Part shown: positions 27,443 through 64,000 of the stretch, in pieces
Layout of the letters: every line of letters starts with the position of its first letter
Numbering within the stretch: the first letter of the stretch is position 1
Origin: an uncultured Acidobacteriota bacterium
GTDB lineage: Bacteria > Acidobacteriota > Vicinamibacteria > Fen-336
NCBI GenBank assembly: GCA_963720545.1
Contig: OY970399.1
Coordinates: 2,816,001-2,880,000, forward strand
Length of the DNA stretch: 64,000 nucleotides
Reading direction: 5' to 3'
Program-made: the position numbers and the translations under genes
Notes under the pieces: generated by a model
What the model was told of the DNA's origin: nothing
Seen by the model: the letters and a program-made list of their open reading frames with translations, nothing else
The model's database searches: none

Positions 27443-27446
<4 letters not shown>
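26796..27446 (+). CDS. actA: Alternative complex III pentaheme cytochrome c subunit
   Basis: TM anchor, QPIPFSH, five CxxCH motifs (CRYCH, CMNCH, CTTCH, CLDCH, CSTCH) and LPDFVYFNH. Confidence 0.93.
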
Positions 27447-30533
<3,087 letters not shown>

Positions 30534-30541
<8 letters not shown>

Positions 30542-32463: not shown

Positions 32464-32464
32464 G

Positions 32465-33053
32465 ATGAGGGCGAAGCGCCTGCTGCGCGCTGCTGCGCTG
32501 CTTCTCGACAGCGCTCGTGGCGGGCGGCTGCCGGCAGGACATGCACGACCAGCCGCGCTACAAGCCCTATGCGCAGAGCGAATTCTGGGGCGACGACCGC
32601 TCGGCGCGGCCGCTGCCCGAGGGCACGGTGGCGCGCGGCTTCCTGCGCGCCGATGCGGCGTTCTACACCGGCAAGGAGGACGGGGCCTTCGTGGCCTCGT
32701 TCCCGCTCGCGGTGGACGAGGCGTTGCTGCAGCGCGGCCGGCAGCGCTTCGACATCTACTGCACGCCGTGCCACGGCCGCACCGGCGCCGGCAACGGCAT
32801 GGTGGTGCAGCGCGGCCTGAAGCAGCCGCCGTCCTTCCACGTCGCGCGCCTGCGCGACAGCCCGCCCGGCTACTTCTTCGACGTGATGACGAACGGCTTC
32901 GGCGCCATGCAGGACTACGCCGCCGCCATCGAACCGAAGGATCGCTGGGCGATTGCCGCGTACCTGCGCGCATTGCAGTTCAGCCAGGCCGCGGCACCCG
33001 CGGACGTGCCGGCGGCCACGCCGGCCAGCCCCGCCGCGGAGGCGCACGAATGA
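32465..33053 (+). CDS. actE: Alternative complex III ActE monoheme cytochrome c lipoprotein (frameshift in signal region)
   Basis: Lipobox-like AGGC-RQDMHDQPRY, GTVARG, CTPCH and DRWAIAAYLRALQ. Confidence 0.88.
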
Positions 33054-34247
33054 CGTCGAGCGAGCGCACCATTCCGCCGGGCGTCGCCGCGGTGCAGCGC
33101 CTCGGCATGGCCGCGGGCGTCCTCGGCGTCCTGGGCTGCGCCGCCGGCTTGTTCCTGCAGCCCGCGCAGTTCTTCCGCTCGTACCTCTTCGGATTCCTGT
33201 TCTGGGCGTTCCTCGCCTTCGGCGCCACCGCGCTGCTGATGATCCAGCACCTCTCCGGCGGCATGTGGGGGCTCGTCAACCGCCGCATGCTCGAAGCCGC
33301 GAGCCGCACGGCACCGGTGGTGGCGCTGCTCTTCATCCCGGTGGCGCTGGGCATCTCGTCGATCTATCCGTGGGCGCATCCGCAGGACGTGCCCGAGATC
33401 GTGCGCCTCAAGCTCGGCTACCTGAACGCGCCGTTCTTCACCTTGCGCGCCGCCGCCTACTTCTTCCTCTGGATGGTCGTCACTTTGTTCCTCAACAAGT
33501 GGTCGCTGCAAGCAGGACCGCGAGCCGAGTGCAGGCGCTCAGCTACCGCCTCGAGAACCTCTCCGGCGCTGGCCTCGTGCTGCTGGCGTTCGTTACTACC
33601 TTCGCCTCGATCGACTGGGCGATGTCCCTCTCGCCCGACTGGTTCTCGACCATCTACGGCGTGCTCTTCATGGTCGGCGGCCTGTTGTCTCGGCGTGGTC
33701 TTTCGTCATCCTGCTGATCGCCGTCTGGGGCGACGACGCAGCCGTTCGATCGCGTCTGCGAAGCCCGGACTTCATCCAGGACATGGGCAAGTTCCTGCTG
33801 ACCTTCATCATGCTGTGGGCCTACATGCACCTCTCGCAGTTCCTCATTATCTGGTCCGGGAACCTGCCCGAGGAGATCCCCTGGTACCTGAACGCGCATG
33901 AGCGGGCGCCTACATGTACCTGGGACAGGCGCTCGTGGTGCTTCACTTCGCCCTGCCGTTCCTGATACTGCTGTCGCGCGATTTGAAGCGCGTGCGCAAG
34001 AAGCTCGCCGATGGTCGCGGGCCTGGTCTTCGTCATGCGCGCCTTCGAACTGCTGTGGATCATCGGCCCGCGAGATCCACGGGGCGTCGTGGTGCACTGG
34101 CTGGACGTCGCGGCCTGGGCGGCGGTCGGCGGCATCTGGGTGTGGTTCTTCACCCAGCAGCTCAAGAACCGGCCGATGCTGCCGCTCGGCGAACCCGAGC
34201 ATCCGCGAATTGCTCGAGTGCCAAGGCGGAGGCACCAGGCGCGATGA
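33050..34247 (+). CDS. actF: Alternative complex III ActF membrane subunit, several apparent frameshifts
   Basis: FFRSYL, QHLSGGMWG...R, YLNAPFF, SIDWAMSL..WFSTIYG, DMGKFLL...WAY...SQFLIIWSGNLPEEIPWY. 3' end approximate. Confidence 0.85.
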
Positions 34248-34718
34248 CCACGACGCAGCACGGGCACGGCTACCGACGGCTCCCGCTCGAATCCGCACGT
34301 GCGCTACGAAACCGTAGACATCGACGGCTCGCCGATCATGCGCTCGGCCGTATACCTGTTCGTCATCCTGACCATGGTGCTGGCGCTCCTCTGGTTCTTC
34401 TTTGGCTTCCTCACGCGCCGCGAAGCCGCCGCGCAGCCGCCGCCACGGCCGATCGCCTTTCCCGCGGACCGCCGGCCGCCGCTGCCGAACCTGCTCATCG
34501 ACGAGCCGAAGAACCTGAAGGAGTTCCGCGCGAGCGAGGATGCGCTGCTGCATTCCTCGGGCACGGTCGATCCGGCGCCCGCCGGCGGCGGTGAGCCCGT
34601 GATGCGCATCCCCATCGACGACGCGATCCGCATCGTGGCGAAGCGTGGGCTGCCTACGCGCAGCACGCCGTCGGCGTCACCAAGCGCGACGCCGTCGCCC
34701 GCAAAGGCGAGCCACTGA
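34244..34718 (+). CDS. ActG-like single-TM accessory subunit (frameshift near N-terminus)
   Basis: RYE..DI, a TM helix, PP.P.L..DE...L..FR..E...L and MRIPIDDAI. Located between actF and sco. Confidence 0.65.
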
Positions 34719-35559
34719 TGACCATGCGCCGCCTGCTCGCCGTCATTCATCCTCGTCGCAGCCGCGCTGCCTGCGATGCGCACGCGCAGGTGCCGGCGCC
34801 GCCGCCGCCGCCGGTGGACCTGAAGCCACCGATCAGCGCGCAGATCGGCTGGGACCAGAAGCTCGGCACCACCCTACCGATGGACGTGGCTTTCCGCGAC
34901 GAATCGGGCGCCACGGTTGCGCTCGGCGATTACTTCAAGGGCAAGCCGGTGGTGCTCTCCTTCAACTATTACGAATGCCCGATGCTGTGCAAGGTGCAGC
35001 TGCAAGGCTTCCTCTCGGCGCTGGGCGTCCTCAGCTTCGACGCCGGGCGGGAGTTCGAGGTGCTGACCGTGAGCATCAACCCCGCCGACGGTCCGGGCGA
35101 GGCGGCGCGCTACAAGAAGGGCTACATGGACCGCTATAGGCGGCCCACCGCGAGCGCCGGCTGGCATTTCCTCACCGGCGACGAAGCCGCCATCAAGCAC
35201 CTCGCCGATGCCGCCGGCTTCCGCTACGCCTGGGACGAGGAGACCAAGCAGTACGCGCACCCGGCCGGGATCATGGTGCTGACGCCGGAAGGGCGCATCG
35301 CGCAGTACCTCTACGGCATCGAGTATGCGCCGCGCGACCTGCGCCTTGCGCTCGTCGAGGCTTCGAACGGCAAGATCGGCAACCGCATCGACCAGGCGGT
35401 GCTCTACTGCTACCGCTACGATCCCGCCACCGGCCGCTACGGCGCCGCCATCATGCGCATCCTGCGCACGCTCTCGGTGCTGACGCTCGCGGCGTTCGCC
35501 GCCTTCTTCCTGGCGATGCGCCGGCGCGAACAGCGCCTTGCCGCCGCGAGGGCAGCCTC

Positions 35560-35563
<4 letters not shown>
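34718..35563 (+). CDS. SCO family copper chaperone
   Basis: CPMLC (CxxxC), WHFLTG, YAHPAG and YLYGIEY motifs. Adjacent to coxB. Confidence 0.9.
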
Positions 35564-36515
<952 letters not shown>

Positions 36516-36519
<4 letters not shown>

Positions 36520-38141
36520 CGAGCGAAGTGCGCGAAGCGCCCCGGCGGAACTACCTCAACACCGAATACGGTGTGTGGTCGTGGCTCCTCACCAAGGATC
36601 ACAAGCGGATCGCCATCCTCTATCTCGCGGTGATCACGCTGATGTTCGCGATCGGGGGCTTCTACGCGATGCTGATCCGCGTCGAGCTGCTGACGCCGCA
36701 GGGCGACCTGATGAGCTCCGAGACCTACAACCGTGCGTTCACCGCGCACGGCATCATCATGGTGTTCTTCTTCCTGATCCCGTCGATCCCCGCGGTGCTC
36801 GGCAACTTTCTCATCCCCCTGATGATCGGCGCCAAGGACCTGGCGTTCCCGAAGATCAACCTGCTGAGCTGGTACCTGTACGTGATCGGCTCGGGCTTCG
36901 CGCTCGCCGCCATCCTGAGCGGCGGCCTCGACACCGGCTGGACCTTCTACACCCCCTACAGCACCTCGTTCGCGAACGGGGCCGTGACCACTGCCGCGCT
37001 CGGCGTGTTCATCGCCGGCTTCTCCTCGATCCTCACCGGCTTCAACTTCATCGTCACCATCCACAAGATGCGCGCCCCGGGCCAGACGTGGTTCCGGCTG
37101 CCCCTCTTCGTCTGGGCGCACTACGCCACTTCGATCATCCAGGTTCTCGGCACGCCGGTGATCGCGGTGACCATCCTGATGGTCGCGCTCGAGCGCGTCT
37201 TCCACTTCGGCTTCTTCGACCCGGCACGCGGCGGCGACCCGGTGCTGTTCCAGCACCTCTTCTGGTTCTACTCGCACCCGGCGGTCTACATCATGATCCT
37301 GCCGGCGATGGGTGTGGTCAGCGAGCTGGTCACGTGCTTCTCGCGCAAGCGCATCTTCGGCTACGGCCTGATCGCCGCCTCGAGCTTCGGCATCGCCATC
37401 ATCGGCTTCTTCGTCTGGGCGCACCACATGTTCGTCGCCGGCATCTCGGTGTACTCGGCGATGGTGTTCTCGGCGCTCAGCTTCCTGGTCGCGATCCCGT
37501 CGGCGATCAAGGTGTTCAACTGGACCGCCACCCTCTACAAGGGCTCGATCTCGTACCAGACGCCGATGCTGTACGCGCTCGGCTTCATCGGCCTGTTCAC
37601 GATCGGCGGCCTCACCGGCCTGTTCCTCGCCACCCTCGGCGTCGACGTGCACGTCACCGACACCTACTTCATCATTGCCCACTTCCACTACATCATGGTG
37701 GGCGGCGCCATCATGGGCTACCTCGGCGGGCTGCACTTCTGGTGGCCGAAGATCACCGGCCGCATGTATCCCGAGTGGTGGTCGCGGGTCTCCGCGTTCC
37801 TGGTGTTCTTCGGCTTCAACCTCACGTTCTTCCCGCAGTTCATCCTCGGCTACCTCGGCATGCCGCGCCGCTACCATGCCTACCCCGACGAGTTCCAGGT
37901 GCTGAACGTGATGTCGACCGCGGGCGCCTCGATCCTCGCGGTCGGCTACCTGCTGCCGATGTTCTACTTCGCCTGGTCGATGCGCTACGGCAAGCTGGCG
38001 CCCGCCAACCCGTGGCCCGCCACCGGCCTCGAGTGGACGACGCCGTCGCCGCCGCCGCCCGACAATTTCGAGGAGACCCCGACCGTCACCGGCGAGGTCT
38101 ACGACTACAGGCACCTGCCGAAGGAGCTGTACCTTGGCTGA
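36516..38141 (+). CDS. coxA: Cytochrome c oxidase subunit I, type A2
   Basis: [21 protein letters not shown] (A2 YS signature), WAHHMF, AHFHY and GMPRRY. Confidence 0.97.
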
Positions 38142-38796
38142 CGACCTCGCGCTGCGGCATCACTTCGCCACCGTCGAGCAGCAGAAGGCCGCGTCGACGC
38201 TCGGCATGTGGGTGTTCATCGCCCAGGAAGTGCTGTTCTTCGGCGGCCTGTTCGGCGCGTACGCCGTCTACCGCAACCTCTACTTCGATGCGTTCGCGGC
38301 CAGCAGCCACCACCTCGACCTGAAGCTCGGCTTCATCAACACGCTGGTGCTCATCGGCAGCAGCCTGACGATGGCGATGGGCGTGCATGCCGCGGCGCTC
38401 GGCAAGCCGAAGCAGATCGTCGCCTGGATCCTCGCCACGGTCGGGCTCGGCGGCGTGTTCCTCAGCATCAAGGTGGTGGAGTACGCCGACAAGTTCCATC
38501 ACCACCTGGTGCCCGGCCCGCACTTCAGCGCCGAGTCGCTCGGCCTCACCGGCGTGGCCGCGCAGCACGCGCAGATCTTCTACTCGCTGTACTTCGCGAT
38601 GACCGGGCTGCATGCGGCGCACATGATCATCGGCATCCCGATCCTGCTGCTGACCGCGTTCTTCGCCTGGCGCGGGCGCTACTCGGTTGAGTACCACACC
38701 CCGGTCGAGCTCGTCGGCCTGTACTGGCACTTCGTCGACATCATCTGGATCTTCCTCTTCCCGCTCCTCTACCTCATCGGCCACAGGACCTTCTGA
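38134..38796 (+). CDS. coxC: Cytochrome c oxidase subunit III
   Basis: [28 protein letters not shown] and GLYWHFVD motifs. Confidence 0.94.
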
Positions 38797-38798
38797 AC

Positions 38799-39077
38799 AT
38801 GTCGAGCCACATCGTCCCGGTCAGGATCTACATCACGGTGTTCCTCGCCCTGGTCGTCGGTACCATGCTCACGGTGTATGCCGCCACCCACGACTTTGGC
38901 ATGTTCAATACACCCGTCGCGCTGCTGATCGCGTTCTCGAAAGCGACCCTGGTGGTGCTGTTCTTCATGCACGTGAAGTACAGCGACAGCCTGACGCGGC
39001 TCTGGGTGGTCGCCGGCATCGCGTTCCTGCTGATCCTCTTCCTGCTCACCGGCTCGGACTACATCACCCGCCACTGA
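38799..39077 (+). CDS. coxD: Cytochrome c oxidase subunit IV family protein
   Basis: Three TM helices with KATLVVLFFMHVKY. Confidence 0.88.
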   Translation: MSSHIVPVRIYITVFLALVVGTMLTVYAATHDFGMFNTPVALLIAFSKATLVVLFFMHVKYSDSLTRLWVVAGIAFLLILFLLTGSDYITRH

Positions 39078-45313: not shown

Positions 45314-45961
45314 TTGGCCCAGATTTTCCCCCGCTCACTGAACCGGCTCCCCTTGTACCTGGCCCTCGCGGGTGTGCTGGTGCCGAGCACCGCCGTCGCC
45401 TTCGTCTGGTACTACTTTTCGCCGCGATTCACCGACGTCGGCTACCAGCCTGAACAGCCGGTTCCCTACAGCCACAAGCTGCATGTCGGCGAGCTGCGCC
45501 TCGACTGCCGCTATTGCCACGCCTCGGTCGAGAAATCGTCGGTTGCGAACGTGCCGCCCACCCAGGCCTGCATGAACTGCCACCAGCTGGTGATGCGCGA
45601 CAGCGAGAAGCTGAAGCCGATCCGCGACAGCGCCGCCTCCGGCCAGCCGATGCGCTGGGTGCGCGTCCACAAGCTGCCCGAATACGCGTACTTCAACCAC
45701 CGCGCGCACATCAGCGCCGGGGTGGGGTGCGTCAGCTGCCACGGGCGCATCGACGAGATGGAAGTGGTGCACCAGGAGCAGCCGCTGTCGATGGGCTGGT
45801 GCCTCGACTGCCACCGCAACCCCGCACCCAACCTGCGGCCCCTGTCCGAGATCACCAACATGACGTGGCGGCCGGCGCGCGACGCCAAGGCCCGCGAACA
45901 GCAGATCGCGGCATTGCGACCTGTCCATCCGCCGCAAGACTGCACGGGGTGCCATCGATGA
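45314..45961 (+). CDS. actA: ActA-like pentaheme cytochrome c (second copy)
   Basis: QPVPYSH, five CxxCH motifs (CRYCH, CMNCH, CVSCH, CLDCH, CTGCH) and LPEYAYFNH. Confidence 0.92.
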   Translation: MAQIFPRSLNRLPLYLALAGVLVPSTAVAFVWYYFSPRFTDVGYQPEQPVPYSHKLHVGELRLDCRYCHASVEKSSVANVPPTQACMNCHQLVMRDSEKLKPIRDSAASGQPMRWVRVHKLPEYAYFNHRAHISAGVGCVSCHGRIDEMEVVHQEQPLSMGWCLDCHRNPAPNLRPLSEITNMTWRPARDAKAREQQIAALRPVHPPQDCTGCHR

Positions 45962-48911
45962 GTTCGGCTTCGTCCACGACGCCCGAATACTGGCGCAGCC
46001 TCGGCGGGCTTGCCGGCAGCGACGAGTCGCGCGAGTACCGCGAGCGCGAGTTCCCGGAAGGCGCGTCGGAAGCGCCCGACGTGCTGACGCGGCGCCAGGC
46101 CCTCACCCTCATGGGTGCGTCGGTTTCGCTCGCGAGCCTGGCCGCCTGCCGGCGCCCCACCGAGCACATCGTGCCCTACGTCAACGCGCCCGAGCAGGTG
46201 ATCCCCGGCGTGCCGCGCCACTACGCGACCACCATGCCCTCGGGCACCAGCGCTTACGGCCTCGTGGTCGAGAACCACGAGGGCCGGCCCACCAAGATCG
46301 AAGGCAACGAACTGCATCCCGCGACCCTCGGCTCGTCGAGCGCCCGCGTCCAGGCCGCGGTCCTCGACCTCTACGACCCCGACCGGTCGCCGTTCGTCAC
46401 GAGCAGGGGCGAGGCCACCAACTGGGACGCATTCGTGAACGCCTGGAAGGTGCGGACGAAGGCGCACGCCGACGACGGCGGCGCATCGCTCGCGCTGCTG
46501 CTGCCGCCCTCCGCGTCGCCAACCCTGTTCCGCGGCGTCGACGCCTTCCGCAAGGCGTTTCCGCAGGCGCTGGTGGTGGTGGCCGGTCCGGTGACCGACC
46601 GCAACGTCCATGCCGGCGTCGCACGCGCCGCCGGGCGCGCGCTCCTGGGCGTGCACCATTTCGACAAGGCGCGCGCGGTGCTCGCGATCGACTCCGACTT
46701 CCTCAACACCGACGCCGAGATGATCCGCAACACGCGCGGCTACGCCGCGGCGCGGCGCCTCGCGAAGGCCGACGACTCGATGGTCCGCTTGTGGTCGGTG
46801 GAGGCCGTCTTCTCCAACACCGGGGCCAACGCCGACCATCGCCTGCGGGTGCCGGCACGCAGCATTCCCGCTGTGGTCGCAGCGCTCGCGGCCGAGCTGG
46901 GCGCGGCGCCTGCCGCCGCCCTGCCCGAGGGTGTCGATGCGGCATGGATCAAGGCGGCGGCGGCCGACCTCACGGCACACAAGGGCGCCTCGCTCGTCGT
47001 CGCCGGGCCGCGCCAGCCGCCGGCGGTGCACGCCGCGGTGCTGGCACTGAACCAGCGCCTCGGCAACCTCGGCGCGACGCTCGAGTATCACGAGCCCGTG
47101 GATGCGCTGCTGCCCACCCCCGGCGGTCTCGCCGAGCTGACGACGGCGCTCGGCGCCGGACGCGTGAAGACGCTGGTGATCGCCGGGGGCAACCCCGCCT
47201 ACGACGCGCCGGCCGATCTCGACTTCCCGAACGCGGCGAAAAAGGCGGAAGAAGTCATCCACCTCGGCCTGCACCGCGACGAGACTGGCCAGCTTGCCAA
47301 TTGGCACATCCCGCAGGCGCACTTTCTCGAGTCGTGGGACGATGCGCGCGCGAGCTGTGGCACGCTGAGCGTGGTGCAGCCGATGATCCTGCCGCTCTAC
47401 TCCGGCAAGAGCACGGCCGAACTGTTGCACCTGCTGGCGTCGTCCGAATCGAAGGCCGCCTACGACCTGGTGCGCGAGACCTGGCAGGGACTGCTCGGCG
47501 CCGACTTCGAGAAGAAGTGGCGCCGCGTCCTGCACGACGGCGTGCTTGGCGGCAGCGCGTTGCCCGCGGTGGCGGTCGCGGCCGGGAACGCGGCATCCGT
47601 CCGCCGGCGAACTCGCCGCGCTGTCGGCACCCGCCGCAGGCGACCTCGACCTCGTGTTCGCGGCCTGCCCAAAGGTCGGCGACGGCAGTGCTGCCAACAA
47701 CCCGTGGCTGCAGGAGCTGCCCGATCCGCTCACCAAGGTCACCTGGGACAACCCGCTGCTCGTCAGCCCGAAAACCGCCGCGGCCAAGGGGCTGAAGGAC
47801 GGCGACATCGTCAAGGTGGAGGCCGGCGGCCGCAGCCTCGAGCTGCCGATCTTCCGCGTTCCCGGCATGGCCGAGCGGACCGCGGTCGCGGTACTCGGCT
47901 ATGGCCGCAGCAGCGCCGGCCGGGCCGCGAACGGCGTCGGCTTTGCCACATATGCCCTGCGCGCGGCGGCGCAGATGGACCTCACCCCCGCCGTCATCAG
48001 CGGGACGGGGCGCAACTATGCCCTGGCGCAGACGCAGGAGCACGGCAGCATGGACGGCCGTTCCATCGTGCGCAGCGCGAGCCTCGCCGCCTATCGCAAG
48101 AACCCGAAATTCGCCGCCGACCACGAGGAGCTCGTTCTCCCTGTGGAAGGAGCACGAGTACAAGAGCAAGCCGCAGTGGGGGATGGTGATCGACCTCGGC
48201 TCCTGCACCGGCTGCAACGCCTGCGCGGTGGCGTGCCAGAGCGAGAACAACATTCCGGTGGTCGGCCGCGACCAGGTGAGCCGCGGCCGCGAGATGGCCT
48301 GGATCCGCATCGACCGCTACTTCACCGGCGAACCCGAGGATGCCGGCGCCGTGTTCCAGCCGGTGCCGTGCATGCAGTGCGAAAACGCGCCTTGCGAACA
48401 GGTCTGTCCGGTGGCGGCGACGGTGCACGACGCCGAAGGCCTGAACGCGATGGTCTACAACCGCTGCATCGGCACCCGCTATTGCTCGAACAACTGCCCC
48501 TACAAGGTGCGCCACTTCAACTTCTACAACTACACCAAGGACACGCCCGAGCTGTTCAAGATGGCGAACAACCCGGACGTCACGGTGCGCGCCCGCGGCG
48601 TGATGGAGAAGTGCACCTACTGCGTGCAGCGCATCAGCGAGGCGCGCATCGACGCGCGGCTCGGGGGACGCGAGCTGAAGGACGGCGACGTCAAGACCGC
48701 GTGCCAGCAGGCGTGCCCGGCCGAAGCGATCCGCTTCGGCGACATCCTCGACCAGCAGAGCGCCGTCGCCACGGCGCGCGCCAGCGACCGCAACTACTCC
48801 CTGCTCGCAGAGCTCAACACCAAGCCGCGCACCACCTACCTGGCGCGCGTGCGCAACCCCGACCCGGCGCTCGAGCCGGAGAAAGACGCGCCGGCGGAGG
48901 AACATGCATAG
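45958..48911 (+). CDS. actB: ActB-like Tat-exported Fe-S protein (second copy), two apparent frameshifts
   Basis: [56 protein letters not shown] and RGVMEKC. Shifts near 47602 and 48132. Confidence 0.9.
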
Positions 48912-49542
48912 TTCGCCGGTCCTGCGCGGCGCGGCCATCGCGCTGCTGGTGGTCACCACCGGGTGCCGTGGCTGCCGCTCGTCGCAGCCGCCGATCCACG
49001 TCAACCCGAGCATGGATCACCAGCCGAAGTACCTGCCGCAGGCGGAAAGCGACTTCTTCTACGACGGCATGACCATGCGCCAGCCGGTGCCCGGCACGGT
49101 GGCGCGCGGCGAGTTGCGCGAGGACACGGTGCTGTTCGACGGCAAGGACGCGGCCGGCGCCATCGTCGCCAACTCGCCGCTGGCGCAGACGCCGGAACTG
49201 CTGGCGCGCGGCGCCGACCGCTACCACATCTATTGCGAGCCGTGCCACGACGCGCGCGGCGACGGCAAGGGCATCCTGTTCGTGCGCGGCAACATCCCGA
49301 CCGCGTCGCTGCACGATCCGACCAAGACCGCGACCGACGGCCACATCTTCGACGTCATCACCAACGGTCAGGGGCTGATGCCCGCCTACAAGTGGCCGCT
49401 GCCGCCCGAGGATCGCTGGGCCATCATCGCCCACGTCCGCGAGCTGCAGCGCGTGCGCGCCGAGCAGGTGGCAAGCGGCGCGGAAGCGGCGCCCGCCCCG
49501 GCGGCGCCCGCCGCAGAGCCGCCCGCCGGAGCGGTGAAATGA
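48904..49542 (+). CDS. ActE-like monoheme cytochrome c lipoprotein
   Basis: Lipobox TTGC, PPIH.NP.M..QPKY, GTVARG, CEPCH and [13 protein letters not shown]. Confidence 0.85.
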
Positions 49543-51401
49543 ACATCAGGATCACGCGCACCCGCCTGGCGGTCGGAACGCTGCTCGTCACCGGGGTGAT
49601 GTTCGCCGGTGCGGTCGGCCTGGTGCGCACGCTGACCAACCAGGAATACCACGCTCCGGTGATCGCGGAGAAGACCGATTCCGCCGCAGCGCCGCGCGAG
49701 CAGGCGCTGAAGGATGCTTCCGAAGCGCGCCTCAAGTCGGAGCGGGAACGTCCCTACAAGGACGACGAGTACCGTGCCTTCCCGATGGTGGGCAGCCGCG
49801 TCGCGGTCTGGATCATCGCCCAGCTGCACCTGCTGTTCGCGGCATTCGTGCTGGCGGTGCCGCTGTTCGCGCTCATCATCGAGTTCATCGGCTTCCTCAA
49901 GAAAGACAAGCGCTTCGACCGGCTCGCCTACGAATTCACCAAGCTGCTGTCGGTTTCGTTCTCGCTCACCGCCACCTTCGGCGCCTTCCTGCTGTTCATG
50001 CTGGTGGTCCTGTACCCGAAGTTCATGGTGTACCTGACGCACGTGTTTTCACCGACCTTCGCACCCTACGTCGGCCTTTTCTTCTTCGAGGCGTTCTTCC
50101 TCTACACGTACTACTACGGCTGGGGAAAGTTCTCGCCAAAGGTGCACCTGTTCCTCGGCCTCTGCCTCAACCTGGTCGGCACCGGCATCATGCTGATCGC
50201 GAACGCGTGGCTCACGTTCATGACGACGCCCGCCGGCGTCTCCGAGAGCGGTGCCGTCATCAGCACCTGGGACGCCGTCCACAACTACACCTGGATGCCG
50301 ATCAACATCCACCGCATCATCGCGAACGTCGCGTTCGGCGGCTCGGTGGCGGCCGCATACGCTGCCTTCAAGTACCTGGGAGCCACCACCGACGAGGAGC
50401 GCGCCCAGTACGACTGGATGGGCTACATCGGTAACTTCATCGCCATCTGCGCGTTCCTGCCGCTGCCGTTCGCCGGCTACTGGCTGGCGTCGGAGATCTA
50501 CGCCTACTCGCAGACCCTTGGCCTCACGATGATGGGCGGCGCCTTCTCGTGGCTGTTCATCATCCAGGCGGTGCTCATCGGCAACCTGTTCCTCGGCGCC
50601 AACTATTACCTGTGGCTCGGCATGGGCCGGGTGGACGCCTCGCGCCGCTTCCAGGGCTACATCAAGTACCTGCTCATCGTCATCGCCATCTGCTTCGCCA
50701 TCTGGGGCACGCCGCGCTCGATCATCGCCACCGTCTCCGAGACGCGCGCGATGGGCGGCGCTTCGCACCCGCAGCTCGGCTACCTCGGCGTCATGTCGGC
50801 GAAGAACACCGCGGTCAACATCCTCATCCTCACCACCTACGTGAGCTTCCTGCTGTACCGCCGTTCCGGGCGCGTGCCGACAGTCTCGTGGGCGCGGCTC
50901 GGCAACATCGCGCAAGGCGCAATCGCGCTGCTGGCGGGCGGCATCGTCATCTTCCTCGGCATCTACGGCTACTTCGTCGAGGCGAAGGTGCGCATAGGAT
51001 TTTCCGTGCCCCAGGTGGGGTCGGTGCTGACCGCCATGATCGTGGTGACGATCATCGACGTGTTCATGTACCGAAACGCGCGCGACCTGGGTGAAATCCA
51101 CTGGGGGCGCATCCACCCGATCTCGCAGTACGTGCTCATCTTCCTCGCGGTCACGTTCACGTGGCTGATGGGGCTCATGGGCTACGTGCGCTCGGGCCTG
51201 CGCCAGCACTGGCACGTCTACGGCATCATGCGCGACACCTCGGTCGACGCATTTACGCCGACGCTCGGCTTCGCCACTCGCATCGTCTCGGTGACGGTGC
51301 TGCTCTTCTTCATGCTCATCGGCTTCGTGTTCTGGCTCGCGAGCCTCTCCGACCACGACCCCACCGCCGATTCGGGGCATGGCCACGGGAACAAGTCGTG
51401 A
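49539..51401 (+). CDS. Cytochrome bd subunit I (CydA)-like protein lacking the Q-loop (bd-like oxidoreductase)
   Basis: 620 aa polytopic protein. QLHLLFAAFVLAVP, FFFEAFFLY.Y.YGW, ANAW..FM.TP.G, IHRIIAN and GYVRSGLRQHW.VYG echo CydA motifs. No KLAAxE quinol motif and no cydB nearby. Confidence 0.82.
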   Translation: MNIRITRTRLAVGTLLVTGVMFAGAVGLVRTLTNQEYHAPVIAEKTDSAAAPREQALKDASEARLKSERERPYKDDEYRAFPMVGSRVAVWIIAQLHLLFAAFVLAVPLFALIIEFIGFLKKDKRFDRLAYEFTKLLSVSFSLTATFGAFLLFMLVVLYPKFMVYLTHVFSPTFAPYVGLFFFEAFFLYTYYYGWGKFSPKVHLFLGLCLNLVGTGIMLIANAWLTFMTTPAGVSESGAVISTWDAVHNYTWMPINIHRIIANVAFGGSVAAAYAAFKYLGATTDEERAQYDWMGYIGNFIAICAFLPLPFAGYWLASEIYAYSQTLGLTMMGGAFSWLFIIQAVLIGNLFLGANYYLWLGMGRVDASRRFQGYIKYLLIVIAICFAIWGTPRSIIATVSETRAMGGASHPQLGYLGVMSAKNTAVNILILTTYVSFLLYRRSGRVPTVSWARLGNIAQGAIALLAGGIVIFLGIYGYFVEAKVRIGFSVPQVGSVLTAMIVVTIIDVFMYRNARDLGEIHWGRIHPISQYVLIFLAVTFTWLMGLMGYVRSGLRQHWHVYGIMRDTSVDAFTPTLGFATRIVSVTVLLFFMLIGFVFWLASLSDHDPTADSGHGHGNKS

Positions 51402-51949
51402 GGGTGCCGGTGGTCGTCAAGATCGGCGTGCTGACCATCGCCACCACCAGCTTCTACATGTTCATCGGCCAGCTGGTGCCGCAGAAGGAAGTGCACCCGC
51501 CGAAGGAGACCGCCCTCAAGAAGGAGATGGGCGAGGCCGAGCTGGTGCAGGCGGGCCACCAGATCATGGAAGGCAAGGGGCTGTGCTTCACCTGCCACAC
51601 CATCGGCAAGTCGGGTGCCTTGCGCTTTCCCGACCTCGCCGGCATCGGCGCGCGCGCCGGGACGCGGGTGCCGGGCCTCAACGACGTCCAGTACCTGGCG
51701 CAGTCGATCTACGAGCCGAGCCATTTCATCGTGCCCGGCTTCAACCCCGGCATGCCGGTCATCAACAAGCCGCCCATCGGCCTCACCGACCAGGAAATCC
51801 TGGCCGTGATCGCCTGGCTGCAGAGCCAGGGCGGCAAGGTGAGCGTGACACTCAACTCGAAGGTGTGGCCGCTCGATGCTGCCGGCGCGGCGCCCGCTGC
51901 CGACGCGGCGGCCCCGGCGGCGTCGCCGGCAGCGGAGCCGAAGACCTAG
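51398..51949 (+). CDS. Membrane-anchored monoheme cytochrome c
   Basis: N-terminal TM, CFTCH, YLAQSIYEP..FIVPGF and GMP. Confidence 0.87.
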   Translation: MRVPVVVKIGVLTIATTSFYMFIGQLVPQKEVHPPKETALKKEMGEAELVQAGHQIMEGKGLCFTCHTIGKSGALRFPDLAGIGARAGTRVPGLNDVQYLAQSIYEPSHFIVPGFNPGMPVINKPPIGLTDQEILAVIAWLQSQGGKVSVTLNSKVWPLDAAGAAPAADAAAPAASPAAEPKT

Positions 51950-51953
51950 CGCC

Positions 51954-52781
51954 ATGACCTTCCTGTTCTTCAACCTGCCGATCCTGCTCGCCGTGATCGC
52001 GGCGTGGCTGCTGCTGCGGTGGCGCAAGGCCGGCAGCTTCACCTGGACGCTCGCCATCTGGATCGGGATGTTCCTGATCTTCCGCCTCGGCTTCGCGGTG
52101 CCGATCCCGCTCTCGGTGATCCTCCTCTACATGGGCATCGTCTCGCTGGCGCTGACCGCGTACGTGACGTCCGACTCGGAGCGGCGCACGGCGTTTGCCG
52201 CGCCGATCCTGTCGCTGGTGCTCGATCCCGCAAAGAAGCTGTTGCTCGCCGGTGTGCTGGTGCTGCTGCCGGCGCTCGCCGTCGCCGGCGCCTGGCTCAG
52301 CACCCGCGAGAAGCTCGAGGCGCCGGGCTTCGGCCGCACCGTGCACCCGGCGCCGCCCGACACCATCACCGTGCACGACAAGAGCGTCGACCTCGTCAAG
52401 GGCCACAACCCGCTGCGCGAGCTTGAGACCACGAACCCGGAACAGTTCAAGCAGCACCTCGCCAACGGCCGCAAGACGTACTACCAGAACTGCGTCTTCT
52501 GCCACGGCGACGACATGGCCGGCGACGGCATGTTCATCCACGGCCTCAACCCGATCCCGACCAACTTCACCGACAAGGGCAACATCCCGCAACTGCAGGA
52601 GACGTTCCTCTTCTGGCGCATCTCCAAGGGCGGCCCGGGACTACCGGCCGAGGGCGGCCCGTGGGATTCGGCTATGCCCGCGTGGGAGAGGTTCCTGAGC
52701 GAAGAGCAGATCTGGGAAGTGATCCTGTTCGTCTACGACTACACCGGCTACCGGCCGCGAGCCTCGGAGGCGCACGAATGA
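51954..52781 (+). CDS. Multi-TM membrane protein with C-terminal monoheme cytochrome c
   Basis: About four hydrophobic helices, then CVFCHG and SAMPAW. Confidence 0.85.
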   Translation: MTFLFFNLPILLAVIAAWLLLRWRKAGSFTWTLAIWIGMFLIFRLGFAVPIPLSVILLYMGIVSLALTAYVTSDSERRTAFAAPILSLVLDPAKKLLLAGVLVLLPALAVAGAWLSTREKLEAPGFGRTVHPAPPDTITVHDKSVDLVKGHNPLRELETTNPEQFKQHLANGRKTYYQNCVFCHGDDMAGDGMFIHGLNPIPTNFTDKGNIPQLQETFLFWRISKGGPGLPAEGGPWDSAMPAWERFLSEEQIWEVILFVYDYTGYRPRASEAHE

Positions 52782-54421
52782 TCGGCCGCGGCACCTTCGT
52801 GCGCGTCTTGCTGGCGGCCGCCGTCGCGGGCAGCCCGGCGATCCTCGCGAACGACCTCGACACCGGCAAGAAGGTCTACGACAAGAACTGCGCGCAGTGC
52901 CACGGCGACGCGGGCGACGGCAACGGCGTGGCGGCAGCGCACCTGCGGCCACGGCCCCGCGACTTCACGAGCGGCAAGTTCAAGCTGCGCACCACGCCCT
53001 CGGGCGCGCTGCCGACGGACGACGACCTGAAGCGCGTCATCCGCAAGGGCATGCCGTACACCACGATGCCGGCGTGGCCGAATCTCAGCGACGCCGAGGT
53101 CAACGGCGTCGTGATGTACGTGAAGAAATTCCACGACGGTTTCGCCGACCCGACACAGGCGCCCAAGCCCATCGACCTGCCGGCGGCGCCCGCGTTCAGC
53201 AAGGAGTCGGCGCAGAAGGGCCGCCAGATCTACGTGGACAACGGCTGCGTGCGCTGCCACGGCGACTCCGGGCGCGGCGAAGGGCCGTCCGGCCCGACGC
53301 TCGCGGACGACGCCGGCCATCCGCTGCGCGCGGCCGACCTCAACTACCGCTGGACGTTCCGCGGCGGCCCGACGCGCGAGGACATCTTCCGCACCTTCAG
53401 CACCGGGGTGAACGGCACGCCCATGCCGTCCTTCTACGATTCGCTGAAACCCGAGGAGCGCTGGAACCTCACCGACTACATCTACTCGCTGGGCGATGCC
53501 GACCTGCCGAACTACGCGACGCTGCTGGTCGCAAAGGCGGCCAGCGAAGACCTCGACGTCGCCAAGGGGGCTTCGCTCTTCGATGCGGCGCCGATGGCTC
53601 GCTTCCCGCTCGTCGGCCAGATCATGGAGCCCGGCAGGGCGTTTTCGCCGTCCTCGACGGCGGTCGAGGTCAAGGCGGTCTACGACGGCGCGCGCATCGC
53701 CTTCCTGGTGCGTTGGCACGACATCCAGGCGGACACCACCGGCAAGAATTCGCCGATGCTGGAGGTGCCGCTCGAGGAAGAGTCGTCGTCGGCCGCGCCT
53801 GCCCCTGCAGCTGGCGGCGCTGAGGATCCCTTCGCCGCGGAAGCGGCCGCGCCGGCCCCGGCGGCCGCAGCGCCGGCCGATCCGTGGGGAGACGCCGGCG
53901 CCGAAGGCGCTGCTTCGGGCTCCGCCACGGAGTTCTCCGATGCAGTCGCGATGCAGATTCCGGTGGCGCCGCCCGACGGCCCAGCCAAGCCCTACTTCCT
54001 GTTCGGCGACGGCTCGCGCGCAGTGGACCTGTGGTTCCTGGACACCGCCCAGAAGCGGGTCCACCAGTACGTCGGCCGCGGCACCGGGGCCTTGACGCTC
54101 GCCGAAGGCAGCGAGGTGGACGGCAGCGCCACCTACGCGAACGGCGAGTGGTCGGCGATCTTCATCCGCGACCTGCGCTCGACCAACAGCATCTCGTTCG
54201 CGGAAGGCGGCTACGTGCCCATCTCGTTCTCGGTCTGGGACGGGCTCGACCGCGAGCGCGGCAGCCGCCGCGCCATCACGCAGTGGTTCTACGTGTACCT
54301 CGACCCGATGGAGAAGCCGTCGGCCATCGTGCCGATCGTCACCGCCGGTGCCGCAGTGCTGTTGCTCGAGCTTCTCGGCGTGTTCCTGATCCGCCGCGGC
54401 CGCGCTCGCGCGGCGGCTTGA
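52778..54421 (+). CDS. Diheme cytochrome c fused to an ethylbenzene-dehydrogenase-gamma/DOMON-like domain, C-terminal TM anchor
   Basis: Signal peptide, CAQCH and CVRCH each with a downstream MP, then IAFLVRWHD, FSDAVAMQIP, GEWSAIFIR.L and PISFSVWDG...ER, and a C-terminal TM. Confidence 0.8.
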   Translation: MIGRGTFVRVLLAAAVAGSPAILANDLDTGKKVYDKNCAQCHGDAGDGNGVAAAHLRPRPRDFTSGKFKLRTTPSGALPTDDDLKRVIRKGMPYTTMPAWPNLSDAEVNGVVMYVKKFHDGFADPTQAPKPIDLPAAPAFSKESAQKGRQIYVDNGCVRCHGDSGRGEGPSGPTLADDAGHPLRAADLNYRWTFRGGPTREDIFRTFSTGVNGTPMPSFYDSLKPEERWNLTDYIYSLGDADLPNYATLLVAKAASEDLDVAKGASLFDAAPMARFPLVGQIMEPGRAFSPSSTAVEVKAVYDGARIAFLVRWHDIQADTTGKNSPMLEVPLEEESSSAAPAPAAGGAEDPFAAEAAAPAPAAAAPADPWGDAGAEGAASGSATEFSDAVAMQIPVAPPDGPAKPYFLFGDGSRAVDLWFLDTAQKRVHQYVGRGTGALTLAEGSEVDGSATYANGEWSAIFIRDLRSTNSISFAEGGYVPISFSVWDGLDRERGSRRAITQWFYVYLDPMEKPSAIVPIVTAGAAVLLLELLGVFLIRRGRARAAA

Positions 54422-55539: not shown

Positions 55540-55543
55540 CGCC

Positions 55544-57935: not shown

Positions 57936-57936
57936 G

Positions 57937-59665: not shown

Positions 59666-59675
59666 CCTAAAGCGC

Positions 59676-61293: not shown

Positions 61294-62106
61294 CTACTGC
61301 CAGGCGTCGCCGGACTCGGCGTCGGACTTCAGCTGCGCCTGCTGCTCGTCCATCCACTTCTGGTAGCCCTCGGCGGTGTCCACCGTGACGAAGCCGCGCA
61401 TGCGGTAGTGGCCGAGGCCGCACAGCTGCGCGCAGCCGATCTCGTATTGGAAGTCGGCCTTGCCAGTGCGCTGGCGCATCTCTTCAGTGGTGACGTCCGG
61501 CACGAACCACACCGGGATCGTCAGCCCCGGCACCGCGTCCTGCTTGATGCGCATCTCCCAGAGGGCAAACGAGTGGATGACGTCCTTGCTCGACAGCTCG
61601 ATCAGCACCGGCTTGTTCGCCGGCAGGTAGAGCTGGTTGATGGTGGTGACGTCGTCCTTCGCGTGCGGGTCGGTGCGGTCGAGGCCGAGCGGGTTGGTGG
61701 AGGCGTCGATGAGCGAGTTGTCGCGCCGCCCGAACTCGCCGTCCGGCCCCGGGTAGTGGATGTTCCAGGCGAACTGCTCGCCGATCACGTGGACCACCGT
61801 CGCATCGGCGCGCGGCGGCAGGTTCTCGACGCGCTCGGCCCACAACGGGAACGAGAGGCCGATGAGCAGGAAGGCTTCGGCGACCGCGACCGCCACCTCG
61901 AGATAGGTGGACGCCTTGCTCTTGACGCCGGCGTAGTCGGCCACCGGGTTGGCACCCTTGCGGAAGCGGAACAGGGCAAACAGGAAGAAGCCGCCCCAGC
62001 CGACGAACAGCGCCAGCATTATCCAGTGGACGACCGCGGTCGCCTGATCGAGGGCCAGGCCGTGGGCCGAGGCGAGCTGCGGGAATCCGAGCCAGCGGGT
62101 CATCAT
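61294..62106 (-). CDS. coxB: Cytochrome c oxidase subunit II (no fused cytochrome c)
   Basis: QFAWNIHYPG, SKDVIHSF and CuA motif CAQLCGLGHYRM. Confidence 0.94.
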   Translation of the reverse strand: MMTRWLGFPQLASAHGLALDQATAVVHWIMLALFVGWGGFFLFALFRFRKGANPVADYAGVKSKASTYLEVAVAVAEAFLLIGLSFPLWAERVENLPPRADATVVHVIGEQFAWNIHYPGPDGEFGRRDNSLIDASTNPLGLDRTDPHAKDDVTTINQLYLPANKPVLIELSSKDVIHSFALWEMRIKQDAVPGLTIPVWFVPDVTTEEMRQRTGKADFQYEIGCAQLCGLGHYRMRGFVTVDTAEGYQKWMDEQQAQLKSDAESGDAWQ

Positions 62107-62318
62107 CGGGCGTTCGCTCCGGTTACGAGCCGCAGGCGCGGCTGCGCGTTGGCGGCGGCCAGCTTCGCGTGCTTGCGCAGGTGCAGGAAGAAGGCGACGA
62201 ACGCCCCCTGGATGCAGGCGGTGATGCCGAGCAGCAGCCAGATGCCGAGCCGCGCCGCGTCGACCATGGGACCGTCGGCCTGGCCCAGGCAGGCCGTGCA
62301 GGCGATGAGCGCGTTCAC
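62103..62318 (-). CDS. Small CxxC-containing membrane protein in cox operon
   Basis: GTG overlaps the upstream stop. IACTACLG then a TM helix. Stop overlaps the coxB start. Confidence 0.6.
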   Translation of the reverse strand: MNALIACTACLGQADGPMVDAARLGIWLLLGITACIQGAFVAFFLHLRKHAKLAAANAQPRLRLVTGANAR

Positions 62319-62512
62319 GAGACCCCCTTGTTCTTCTTCAGGAAATGAATTTCGTAGGCGATGAGCGCCAGCCCGACGAGGGCCGCGCCCAGGGCGCCGC
62401 CGAGCCGCGCGGCGCTGTCCACCGGCAGCATCTGGTAGCACCACGCGGCGACGAAGAAAGACAGCAGCACCGAGGCGCTGATGAACACGAGGTGAAAGCC
62501 GCGCAGCGTCAT
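62315..62512 (-). CDS. Small two-TM hypothetical protein in cox operon
   Basis: MTLRGFHLVFISASVLL..., translationally coupled on both sides. Confidence 0.6.
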   Translation of the reverse strand: MTLRGFHLVFISASVLLSFFVAAWCYQMLPVDSAARLGGALGAALVGLALIAYEIHFLKKNKGVS

Positions 62513-62820
62513 CAGTGGATCAGGTGGATGCTGCCCTTGTCGCCGAGGACCGGCGCGAGCAGCAGGACGAAGAACATGAAGACCGTGAGCGCCAGCACGA
62601 AGTAAATGAGCTTCTTCTCGGCGATGAGGTGCATGAACCACGCGCACACCAGCGAGCCCTTGACGAGCGCGATGCCGAGCGCCAGCGTGATCGCGAACTT
62701 GTGCGGCAGGTGCAGGAAATAGGCGCCGACCGTGAAGCCGGTCAGCGCCAGCAGCGCCCCGAACACGAACAGCGCCGAGCGCACGTGCCGGTCGAGGGCC
62801 GCGGTGTCGTTATGGTCCAT
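62512..62820 (-). CDS. coxD: Cytochrome c oxidase subunit IV family protein
   Basis: VFGALLALT and IALVKGSLVCAWFMHL motifs. Confidence 0.88.
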   Translation of the reverse strand: MDHNDTAALDRHVRSALFVFGALLALTGFTVGAYFLHLPHKFAITLALGIALVKGSLVCAWFMHLIAEKKLIYFVLALTVFMFFVLLLAPVLGDKGSIHLIH

Positions 62821-62837
62821 GGTTTCTTTCTAAGCCT

Positions 62838-63428
62838 CTAGAGCAGGTAAAGGATGGGAAAGAGGAAGATCCAGACGAGGTCCACGAGGTGCCAGAAGAG
62901 CCCCGCATTCTCGACCCGGTTGGTGAAATGCACGGGGTCGGTGTGGTACAGCTTCGACCCCGGACCCAGCAGGTAGCCGTTCACGATCATGCCGCCGATC
63001 ACGTGCAGTCCGTGCAGGCCGGTGAGCGTGAAGTAGATGGCGAGGAACGTGTTGGTGTGCGGCAGGTAGCCGTGGTGGAACTTCGCCTCGTACTCGACAT
63101 ACTTGATGCCGAGGAAGATGAAGCCGGCGAGGATCGTGAGACCCATGTAGATGTTGAACTTGCCCTTGTCGCGGCGCGCCACGGCGGCCCAGGCGAGCAC
63201 CACCGTGATCGACGAGCTGATGAGCACCACGGTGTTGACCGTGGCGAGCGGGATGTTCAGGTAGGTGGCTCCGGGCGGCCAGGACGCGGCACCGACGCGC
63301 AGCATGATGTAGGACGCGAACAGCGCGCCGAACAGCATCACCTCGGAGGCGAGAAAGAGCCAGATGCCGATCTTGCCGTTGGTGAGCCCGGTGTCGGGCC
63401 GGGCGTGGACGGTGTAGGGGATTTCCAT
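62838..63428 (-). CDS. coxC: Cytochrome c oxidase subunit III
   Basis: GIWLFLASEVMLFGALF, YFTLTGLHGLHV and GLFWHLVD motifs. Confidence 0.93.
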   Translation of the reverse strand: MEIPYTVHARPDTGLTNGKIGIWLFLASEVMLFGALFASYIMLRVGAASWPPGATYLNIPLATVNTVVLISSSITVVLAWAAVARRDKGKFNIYMGLTILAGFIFLGIKYVEYEAKFHHGYLPHTNTFLAIYFTLTGLHGLHVIGGMIVNGYLLGPGSKLYHTDPVHFTNRVENAGLFWHLVDLVWIFLFPILYLL

Positions 63429-63432
63429 CGCC

Positions 63433-64000
63433 TTAGGCCTTTCCTTCCGCTTCCCACTGGGGCGAATAGTCGCGCGGTGCGCCGGGGACCGAATACTCGT
63501 AGGGCCCGCGGTAGACCTCGACCGGGGTGAGGAAGTTGCCGTGCGGCGGCGGCGACGGCGCCGCCCATTCGAGGGTGGTCGCCTGCCACGGGTTGTCGCC
63601 GACCTTCTTGCCCTTGAAGGCGCTGTAGAAGAAGTTGGCGATGAACACGAGCTGCACGAGGCCCAGGCTCCAGGCGCCGATCGAGGACACCACGTTCCAG
63701 TGCAGGACGTGCTGCGCGTGCGCGTAGGTGGCGCCGCCGTCATAGAGGCGCCGCGACACGCCGGCGAGCCCCATGATGAAGAACGGCATGAAGATCACGT
63801 TCATGAAGATGATCGAGCCGGCGAAGTGGATCTTGCCGAGCGTCTCGTTCATCTGCCGTCCGGTCGCCTTCGGGAACCAGTAGTAGATGCCGGCGAACAG
63901 GCCGAAGATGGTGCCCGGCGCGACCACGTAGTGGAAGTGGCCGATGACGTAGAGGGTGTCGTGCAGGTGGATGTCGGTGGCGGTGAGGCCGAGCGGCAGG
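63433..64000 (-). CDS. coxA: Cytochrome c oxidase subunit I, C-terminal part (truncated by window end)
   Basis: DIHLHDTLYVIGHFHY, YYWFPK, GVSRRLY and NPWQATTLEW...PPPHGNF. Confidence 0.93.
   Translation of the reverse strand, partial: LPLGLTATDIHLHDTLYVIGHFHYVVAPGTIFGLFAGIYYWFPKATGRQMNETLGKIHFAGSIIFMNVIFMPFFIMGLAGVSRRLYDGGATYAHAQHVLHWNVVSSIGAWSLGLVQLVFIANFFYSAFKGKKVGDNPWQATTLEWAAPSPPPHGNFLTPVEVYRGPYEYSVPGAPRDYSPQWEAEGKA

What the first reader, a model, noticed from the sequence alone, without database searches (positions are those of the whole stretch)
45314..54421. Hybrid respiratory module: ACIII periplasmic arm coupled to a quinol-site-less bd-like subunit and a 10-heme wire
Seen: seven tightly coupled genes (stop/start overlaps or gaps of 4 nt or less). 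They are ActA (5 CxxCH), ActB, ActE-like (1), a 620-aa CydA-like protein, cyt c (1), a multi-TM cyt c (1) and a diheme cyt c/DOMON-like fusion (2), for 10 c-type heme motifs in total. There is no actC, actD or actF and no cydB. Known: ActC carries the ACIII quinol site and canonical bd needs CydB. Similar bd-like oxidase, ACIII part and diheme-c/heme-b-domain clusters are described in Nitrospirota (nitrite and Mn(II) oxidisers), with unresolved function. Inference: this is a non-canonical complex with no evident quinol-reactive subunit, fed by periplasmic cytochrome c or Fe-S electrons or borrowing ActC/F from the first cluster. It sits in an organism whose other genes look Acidobacteriota-like, which could imply unrecognised lithotrophy or high-affinity O2/NO reduction.
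Basis: partly seen in the sequence, partly recalled or inferred. Interest (0 to 1): 0.85.

Follow-up and report, generated by a model that had tools for sequence, protein, structure and literature searches.

The report
Split complex III beside bd-like oxidase
In a soil acidobacterium, the electron-wire half of a respiratory complex (alternative complex III) is encoded with a never-purified cytochrome-bd-like membrane protein, while a matching quinol-binding half lies in a facing operon 7-15 kb away, so the halves likely assemble into one complex that would feed this putative oxygen reductase.

Summary
The seven-gene operon and its 10 CxxCH motifs are real: actA, actB, actE, a 14-helix CydA-family protein, two monoheme cytochromes and a diheme/EB_dh protein. 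actB is in three frames here, probably assembly error; reads for this stretch stayed unchecked. The genome (Acidobacteriota, sister to Vicinamibacterales) has no cydB and one CydA-family gene. That protein lacks the Q-loop and fits the known but uncharacterised OR-N1/N2 'bd-like' type (Nitrospira NIDE0901, Manganitrophus TO_1); no tree placement was done. The 'quinol-blind' reading is unlikely: just beyond the window a facing operon encodes exactly the missing actC-actD-actF, without actA/B/E, before a cupredoxin-like gene and a heme-c-free aa3 oxidase. Its ActC keeps the quinol-site residues. Both halves resemble Rhodothermus ACIII; the complete first cluster resembles another type. Best reading: a second ACIII split over two operons, likely feeding the bd-like protein. 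O2 reduction is unproven: E74, E99 and E445 are missing. No NXR/Nar or RuBisCO; a decaheme-porin conduit exists elsewhere. I found no paper on this layout; this scan noted it before in other genomes. New variant of known kinds.

The parts
45314..45961 (+). actA, pentaheme cytochrome c with one N-terminal helix, Rhodothermus-like type
   Evidence: 5 CxxCH; PF14522, QrcA-like; 42% to first-cluster ActA; about 53% to 6f0k_A vs about 44% to 8k9e_A, counted by hand
45958..48911 (+). actB, Tat-exported molybdopterin-like scaffold fused to the Fe-S domain; three frames in this assembly (breaks near 47590 and 48125)
   Evidence: TIGR04519, PF01568, 4Fe-4S models; 15 Cys in the C-terminal piece; 51% over 951 columns to first-cluster ActB
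48904..49542 (+). actE, monoheme cytochrome c, likely lipoprotein (signal ending TTGC, by eye)
   Evidence: 1 CxxCH, distal Met159 candidate; 46.5% to first-cluster ActE; about 53% to 6f0k_E vs about 39% to 8k9e_E, by hand
49539..51401 (+). CydA-family 'bd-like' protein, 620 aa, about 14 helices, no Q-loop; OR-N1/N2-like
   Evidence: PF01654 residues 86-323; 13 hydrophobic segments over 1.3 plus one at 1.26; H19=H97, E107=E184, H126=H203; only CydA-family gene in the genome
51398..51949 (+). membrane-anchored monoheme cytochrome c
   Evidence: 1 CxxCH, PF00034, one hydrophobic segment
51954..52781 (+). four-helix membrane protein with C-terminal monoheme cytochrome c
   Evidence: 1 CxxCH, PF13442, 4 hydrophobic segments
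52778..54421 (+). diheme cytochrome c fused to an EB_dh (DMSO reductase II gamma-like) domain, with C-terminal anchor; 'alt_NxrC'-like architecture
   Evidence: 2 CxxCH, PF09459 over cut-off, TIGR03477 under cut-off; architecture described for Nitrospina
61294..64000 (-). 3' part (coxB without heme c, two small genes, coxD, coxC, end of coxA) of the facing operon; its 5' part lies beyond the window at G000:C1 about 2885245 to 2880000: actC, actD, actF, cupredoxin-like gene, coxA; no actA/B/E
   Evidence: short-read contigs span the actC-actD-actF junctions
26796..39077 (+). first cluster: complete actABCDEF, SCO-like gene and caa3 oxidase (comparison set, different sequence type)

Best explanation
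The operon encodes the periplasmic arm (ActA, ActB, ActE) of a second alternative complex III that likely assembles on the ActC, ActD and ActF encoded in the facing operon 7-15 kb downstream, and would pass quinol-derived electrons through the three membrane-anchored c-type cytochromes to a bd-like (OR-N1/N2-type) membrane protein predicted to reduce O2. Proposed path: quinol at ActC (His139/Ser164/Asp169 equivalents present, shown), Fe-S clusters of ActB, five hemes of ActA, ActE (path known from solved ACIII structures), then monoheme and diheme cytochromes, then hemes b of the CydA-like protein (inferred). The same ACIII probably also supplies the heme-c-free aa3 oxidase of the facing operon through its cupredoxin-like protein (inferred). 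The cell would thus have a standard ACIII-caa3 chain plus a second ACIII with two outlets. Shown: gene content, complementarity, sequence type, residue states. Inferred: assembly across operons, direction of flow, the acceptor.
For: Complementarity: the finding has A, B, E only; the facing operon has C, D, F only, with no CxxCH protein. The genome's three NrfD-family loci are first-cluster ActC, this orphan ActC, and a Psr-like enzyme with its own Mo and Fe-S subunits. Type match: orphan ActC pieces score 283.7 and 271.5 bits on 6f0k_C vs 233.8 and 218.6 on 8k9e_C; orphan ActF 289.4 vs 218.6. First-cluster ActA, ActC piece and ActE score best on 8k9e (253.5 vs 215.2; 207.4 vs 189.1; 146.8 vs 139.5). 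The finding's ActA and ActE are closer to 6f0k by hand count (about 53% vs 44% and 53% vs 39%). Orphan ActC keeps H139, S164 and D169 (H139 and S164 roles; the His/Asp quinol pair). Its frame breaks coincide with indels in short-read contigs from 3 studies. In solved ACIII, ActB and ActA heme 1 pack on ActC and ActD. No bc1 cytochrome b in the genome. The CydA-like protein has the size, missing Q-loop, one-residue deletion before E107 and lone-gene context described for OR-N2, and its partners match TO_1.
Against: No direct evidence of co-expression or binding. Type assignment rests on four solved structures and, for the finding's proteins, on hand counts. Codon usage does not link the two halves more than it links others. 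The CydA-like protein lacks E74, E99 and E445, and no M393 equivalent could be fixed (candidates M331, M332, M419). H186=H258 rests on a by-eye register that neither the MAFFT alignment nor the ungapped scan recovered. No OR-N enzyme has been shown to reduce O2. actB is broken in this assembly and its reads stayed unchecked. Tree placement, cross-genome synteny and structure were not done.
Confidence: 0.55

Rival explanations
1. The CydA-like protein is not an O2 reductase but a heme-b membrane relay or a quinone-reactive anchor that replaces ActC for this ActABE arm, possibly running in reverse.
For: E74, E99 and E445 are absent. It follows actE directly with overlapping stop/start. A quinone-interacting, ACIII-like role for bd-like proteins was floated for Nitrospina.
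Against: It would leave an intact-looking orphan ActC/D/F of the matching type without a partner. No Q-loop motif. ActB and ActA dock on the NrfD fold, not the CydA fold.
Confidence: 0.17
2. A quinol-blind terminal module fed from the periplasm: electrons from an outer-membrane conduit enter through the diheme/EB_dh protein and go to O2, with ActABE as an extra wire.
For: TO_1 of Manganitrophus is proposed to take periplasmic electrons. The genome has a DmsE/MtrA-type decaheme, an MtrB/PioB porin, a monoheme and a membrane tetraheme in one cluster.
Against: No NarG/NxrA-type gene over cut-off, no RuBisCO; the ATP-citrate-lyase search was uninformative. The conduit lies 1.7 Mb away and its direction is unknown. 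Without ActC the Fe-S end of ActB has no donor. By recalled EbdC consensus (not tested by a call) the Met/Lys heme-b ligands look replaced (FLFG, ERGSRR).
Confidence: 0.12
3. ActA/B/E of this operon swap onto ActC/D/F of the first cluster, and the orphan actCDF does something else.
For: The paralogs are 42-51% identical, so cross-assembly cannot be excluded.
Against: The first cluster has its own A, B and E and is of a different sequence type; the orphan set would have no arm.
Confidence: 0.1
4. A decaying locus: actB is truly frameshifted and the arm is non-functional, or the junction is a mis-assembly.
For: Two breaks in actB; 10 of 84 candidate breaks fall in this 100-kb bin, the highest of 41 bins. 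Reads for this operon stayed unchecked.
Against: Candidate breaks also hit genes recognisable as recA, aspS, ileS and sucC/D (names by eye). Breaks in the orphan actC/actD coincide with indels in short-read contigs. All motifs and tight junctions are intact; GC3 0.91-0.93 matches the genome's 0.92.
Confidence: 0.06

Closest known systems
Respiratory alternative complex III, Rhodothermus marinus type (ActABCDEF, PDB 6F0K)
   Same: Pentaheme ActA, fused Fe-S ActB, monoheme ActE here; ActC, ActD, ActF in the facing operon; all lean towards 6f0k; quinol-site residues kept.
   Different: Genes split A-B-E and C-D-F over two facing operons; the arm is linked to a bd-like module, the membrane half to a cupredoxin-like gene and a heme-c-free aa3 oxidase rather than caa3.
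OR-N1/OR-N2 cytochrome bd-like proteins (Murali, Gennis, Hemp, bioRxiv 10.1101/2021.01.16.426971); Nitrospira NIDE0901; TO_1 of Ca. Manganitrophus
   Same: About 14 helices, His19 kept, no quinol-site Q-loop, no CydB, single cydA-like gene; partners are two cytochromes c and an EB_dh-domain protein.
   Different: Preceded by actA-actB-actE; no second CydA paralog for a CydAA' pair (such a pair is proposed for Nitrospirales and Nitrospinota); host has no NXR.
ACIII plus OR-N5 CydAA' clusters of Nitrospirales (PMC12342949) and TO_3 of Ca. Manganitrophus
   Same: ACIII genes directly upstream of bd-like genes.
   Different: Those keep actC and actD in the cluster, lack actF, split actB, and use two 10-helix OR-N5 subunits; here actC/D/F are elsewhere, actB is fused and there is one 14-helix subunit.
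Canonical cytochrome bd quinol oxidase (E. coli CydAB)
   Same: N-terminal helices align (23% over 145 aa); H19, E107 and H126 kept.
   Different: No CydB, no Q-loop K252/E257, no E74, E99 or E445; five more helices.

Membership tests
Alternative complex III | Pentaheme ActA, Fe-S ActB with non-catalytic Mo-type scaffold, monoheme ActE | tested here: met
   actB in three frames in this assembly
Alternative complex III | NrfD-type ActC with quinol site, plus ActD and ActF, in the same gene cluster | tested here: not met
   absent from 45314-54421
Alternative complex III | A free ActC/D/F set in the genome with quinol-site residues | tested here: met
   orphan operon, H139/S164/D169 equivalents present
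Alternative complex III | The six subunits assemble and oxidise quinol | not testable with these tools
   needs purification and assay
Quinol-oxidising cytochrome bd (qOR) | Q-loop with K252/E257, and a CydB or CydA' partner | tested here: not met
   no motif; PF02322 0 matches; one PF01654 gene
bd superfamily | First four helices with His19 ligand | tested here: met
   PF01654 85.6 bits over cut-off 26.2; H97
bd superfamily | Proton-channel E99/E107 and second active-site ligand E445 | tested here: not met
   E107 kept (E184); E99, E74 and E445 not kept; whether OR-N2 members normally keep them was not visible (supplements not seen)
OR-N1/OR-N2 | 14 transmembrane helices, no quinol site, no own CxxCH | tested here: met
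   13 segments plus one weaker, K+R bias 24 vs 11 for alternating loops, 0 CxxCH; crude hydropathy only
OR-N1/OR-N2 | Phylogenetic placement in the OR-N2 (or N1) clade | not tested
   no homolog set or tree; stayed unchecked
OR-C | Heme c motifs in a C-terminal extension of CydA, eight helices | tested here: not met
   0 CxxCH in the CydA-like protein
TO_1 module (Nitrospirota) | bd-like protein with two cytochromes c and a periplasmic cytochrome b-type protein | tested here: inconclusive
   gene content fits; heme b binding doubtful (TIGR03477 under cut-off); orthology not tested

The most novel reading that the evidence does not exclude
Acidobacteriota have a modular, branched respiratory supercomplex in which one ACIII, encoded as two separately regulated halves, feeds a CydB-less 14-helix bd-like enzyme that reduces O2 (or NO) at an active site without the canonical E445 ligand, and alternatively a blue-copper-fed aa3 oxidase. 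This would be the first quinol-linked context for an OR-N2-type enzyme outside nitrite and manganese oxidisers.
Probability: 0.35. Interest if true: 0.75.

Novelty: new variant of a known kind. Interest (0 to 1): 0.5.

Why it matters
OR-N 'bd-like' proteins are the presumed terminal oxidases of Nitrospira, Nitrospina and Mn oxidisers, yet none has a shown activity or subunit composition. A single copy wired to a recognisable electron source, in a host without NXR, gives a defined donor to test it with and argues that a CydAA' pair is not required. It also suggests ACIII can be encoded as two modules, so window-scale annotation will wrongly call such complexes incomplete or quinol-blind.

Tried and rejected
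Read support for the operon and the actB breaks: stayed unchecked. Homolog search, OR-N tree, cross-genome synteny and structure or complex prediction for the seven proteins: not done, so these stay open. No RNA holder listed. Codon usage did not discriminate between partner operons. My first CxxCH census missed low-scoring genes and wrongly suggested no porin-cytochrome conduit; corrected. The ATP-citrate-lyase search rang in 0 of 14 controls and is uninformative. MAFFT of two sequences is unreliable beyond residue 230; the ungapped scan placed H19, E74, E107 and H126 as top hits but not H186, K252, E257 or M393. The RpoB tree is the quick method, from 22 of 75 returned loci (24 chosen, 2 dropped for stops) out of a scan of 1/64 of the collection, so it gives class-level placement only. 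Not held: the ISME J version of Murali et al. and its supplements and the PMC id I tried for the Mn-oxidiser Nature paper; Fig. 1 and the supplements of Murali et al. may already show this operon. PMC9386147 (passages) describes other ACIII-like clusters, not this one. The promoter/terminator scan gave nothing usable.

Full report
Observation. The ORF list and translations show seven genes on the + strand from 45314 to 54421 with junction gaps of -4, -8, -4, -4, +4 and -4 nt and ten CxxCH motifs: five in ActA, one each in ActE and two membrane cytochromes, two in the last protein. Pfam and NCBIfam support ActA, ActB, a monoheme ActE-like protein, a CydA-family protein matched only over residues 86-323, two cytochromes c and a diheme protein with an EB_dh domain. 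actB runs through three frames, with breaks near 47590 and 48125; read through with X it aligns over 951 columns at 51% with the first cluster's ActB. Read support for this operon stayed unchecked. Indirect evidence favours assembly error. A codon-based scan found 84 candidate breaks among 3555 coding segments (some are simply adjacent genes), including genes recognisable by eye as recA, aspS, ileS and sucC/D.

Host and respiratory inventory. The genome is one 4.09-Mb contig, 94.8% complete. Its RpoB falls within Acidobacteriota as sister to four Vicinamibacterales (SH-aLRT 95, quick tree of 23 rows). It has no CydB match, one CydA-family gene, no bc1-type cytochrome b, two A-type heme-copper oxidases, no NarG/NxrA-type gene over cut-off and no RuBisCO. 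It does have NrfH with an NrfA-like protein, a Psr-like Mo enzyme, and a decaheme + MtrB-type porin + monoheme + tetraheme cluster. A facultative, low-oxygen lifestyle is a fair inference; lithoautotrophy is not shown.

The missing half is next door. PF03916 has five matches at three loci: the first cluster's ActC, the Psr-like enzyme, and a gene at G000 about 2885245-2883750 on the minus strand. That gene heads an operon facing the finding: actC, actD, actF, a protein with a C-x2-H-x2-M cupredoxin-like motif, coxA, coxC, coxD, two small genes and a coxB with CuA but no heme c. It has no actA, actB or actE. Short-read contigs from four runs of three studies, laid on this second operon, span the actF-actD-actC junctions and carry indels at the places where the assembly's actC and actD change frame (12 of 22 indel rows shown; each rests on one contig of depth 4-7 in one to four runs; two runs may be the source study).

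The halves match in type. Against the four solved ACIII sequences, orphan ActC and ActF score best on 6f0k (R. marinus, named), whereas first-cluster ActA, ActC and ActE score best on 8k9e (Chloroflexus, name recalled). The finding's ActA shares the NRLP, VWYYFSP and PYSH-x2-HVG motifs with 6f0k_A. By hand count on the printed alignments it is about 53% identical to 6f0k_A and about 44% to 8k9e_A; ActE about 53% and 39%. To the genome's own first-cluster paralogs they are 42% and 46.5%. Orphan ActC keeps the equivalents of His139, Ser164 and Asp169. PMC8076601 (passages) names His139 and Ser164 for the quinone site, and PMC7439408 (passages) shows the His/Asp pair binding menaquinol and ActB and ActA heme 1 packing on ActC and ActD. 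An ActABE arm without ActC would have no electron entry, so pairing with the orphan set is the economical reading. It remains inference.

The bd-like protein. Against E. coli CydA it aligns over the first helices (23% over 145 aa). H19, E107 and H126 map to H97, E184 and H203; E74 maps to L152 and E99 to P176 or Y177, with a one-residue gap before the region. There is no Q-loop motif, and the only glutamates after residue 401 are E481 and E519, so E445 is absent at the GYVRSGLRQHW motif. H258 is the likely H186 equivalent by an N-x8-H-x8-G register seen by eye; automatic alignments did not recover it. Hydropathy gives 13 segments plus a weaker one, and a 14-helix topology puts 24 K+R inside against 11 outside. 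The Murali preprint (10.1101/2021.01.16.426971; parts 1-4 of 6 read, figures and supplements not seen) gives 14 helices for OR-N1/N2, 10 for OR-N3-5, and says OR-N2 often occurs without a second cydA. PMC3578206 (passages) describes the same 14-helix protein with mono- and diheme cytochromes and 'alternative NxrC' proteins. The Manganitrophaceae preprint (10.1101/2021.11.15.468770, passages) defines TO_1 as a bd-like protein, two cytochromes c and a periplasmic cytochrome b. The right half of the operon is therefore a TO_1-like module by content; clade membership was not tested. PMC10839748 (passages) states that activity and composition of OR-N enzymes are unconfirmed.

Mechanism. Most likely: quinol to orphan ActC, ActB Fe-S clusters, ActA hemes, ActE, the operon's cytochromes c, then hemes b of the bd-like protein and O2, with a side branch through the cupredoxin-like protein to the aa3 oxidase (about 0.55 overall; about 0.7 for the pairing alone, about 0.6-0.7 for O2 reduction given the pairing). 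Rivals: a non-oxidase, relay or quinone-reactive role for the bd-like protein (0.17); periplasm-fed module (0.12); use of first-cluster ActCDF (0.10); decay or artefact (0.06).

Comparison and novelty. Both modules are known. ACIII next to bd-like genes is also known, as actABCDE with two OR-N5 subunits in Nitrospirales (PMC12342949, passages) and TO_3. I found no paper describing actABE joined to a single 14-helix bd-like module with actCDF in a separate operon (searches; listings only, except the papers named; PMC8115632 and 10.1101/138586 passages, add nothing on this). The library lacks most subscription papers and the Murali supplements, which may show it. Earlier notes of this scan report the same layout in other genomes, three of them with the same split reading. 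I had recorded that reading before opening them; they are unchecked leads, and distribution was not tested here.

Verdict. A real, tightly coupled operon; not a quinol-blind hybrid but most likely half of a split ACIII fused to an uncharacterised bd-like module. New variant of a known kind; interest 0.5.

Noticed in passing
G000:C1:1170230-1174650 (L092:1732-6133, minus strand): DmsE/MtrA-type decaheme, frame-broken MtrB/PioB porin, monoheme cytochrome c and membrane tetraheme in one cluster (MtoAB-MtoD-CymA-like layout, names recalled), with atypical codon usage.
   Followed up: partly
L093:4512-6469 (G000 about 842500-844470, minus strand): nrfH plus an NrfA-like protein with five CxxCH motifs (no CxxCK counted), under the NrfA cut-offs.
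   Followed up: partly
L015:4272-4990 (G000 about 2881270-2881990, minus strand): Exported protein with a C-x2-H-x2-M loop between actF and coxA; a candidate blue-copper donor for the heme-c-free aa3 oxidase.
   Followed up: partly
window 54825-55045: Three tandem copies of a 74-nt unit (92% matches) with internal palindromes, downstream of the operon.
   Followed up: no
window 26796-34715: First-cluster actB, actC, actD and actF are each broken into several frames, while the cox genes beside them are intact.
   Followed up: partly
L013:8038-12403: Fe-S/NrfD fusion followed by a PsrA/PhsA-like molybdoenzyme, next to a rhodanese/hydrolase-like gene (by eye): a sulfur-oxyanion reductase candidate.
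   Followed up: no
L015:8468-19713: Upstream of the orphan actC: DUF2442, Mrp/NBP35 ATPase, and three proteins with PCP_red domains (alone, with Usp, with radical SAM).
   Followed up: no
window 55102-61202: Between the two operons: GNAT acetyltransferase, cNMP-binding thioredoxin-reductase-like protein, a small protein with a weak Peptidase_C70 match, GH130 and a membrane Ser/Thr kinase.
   Followed up: no
   Followed up: no
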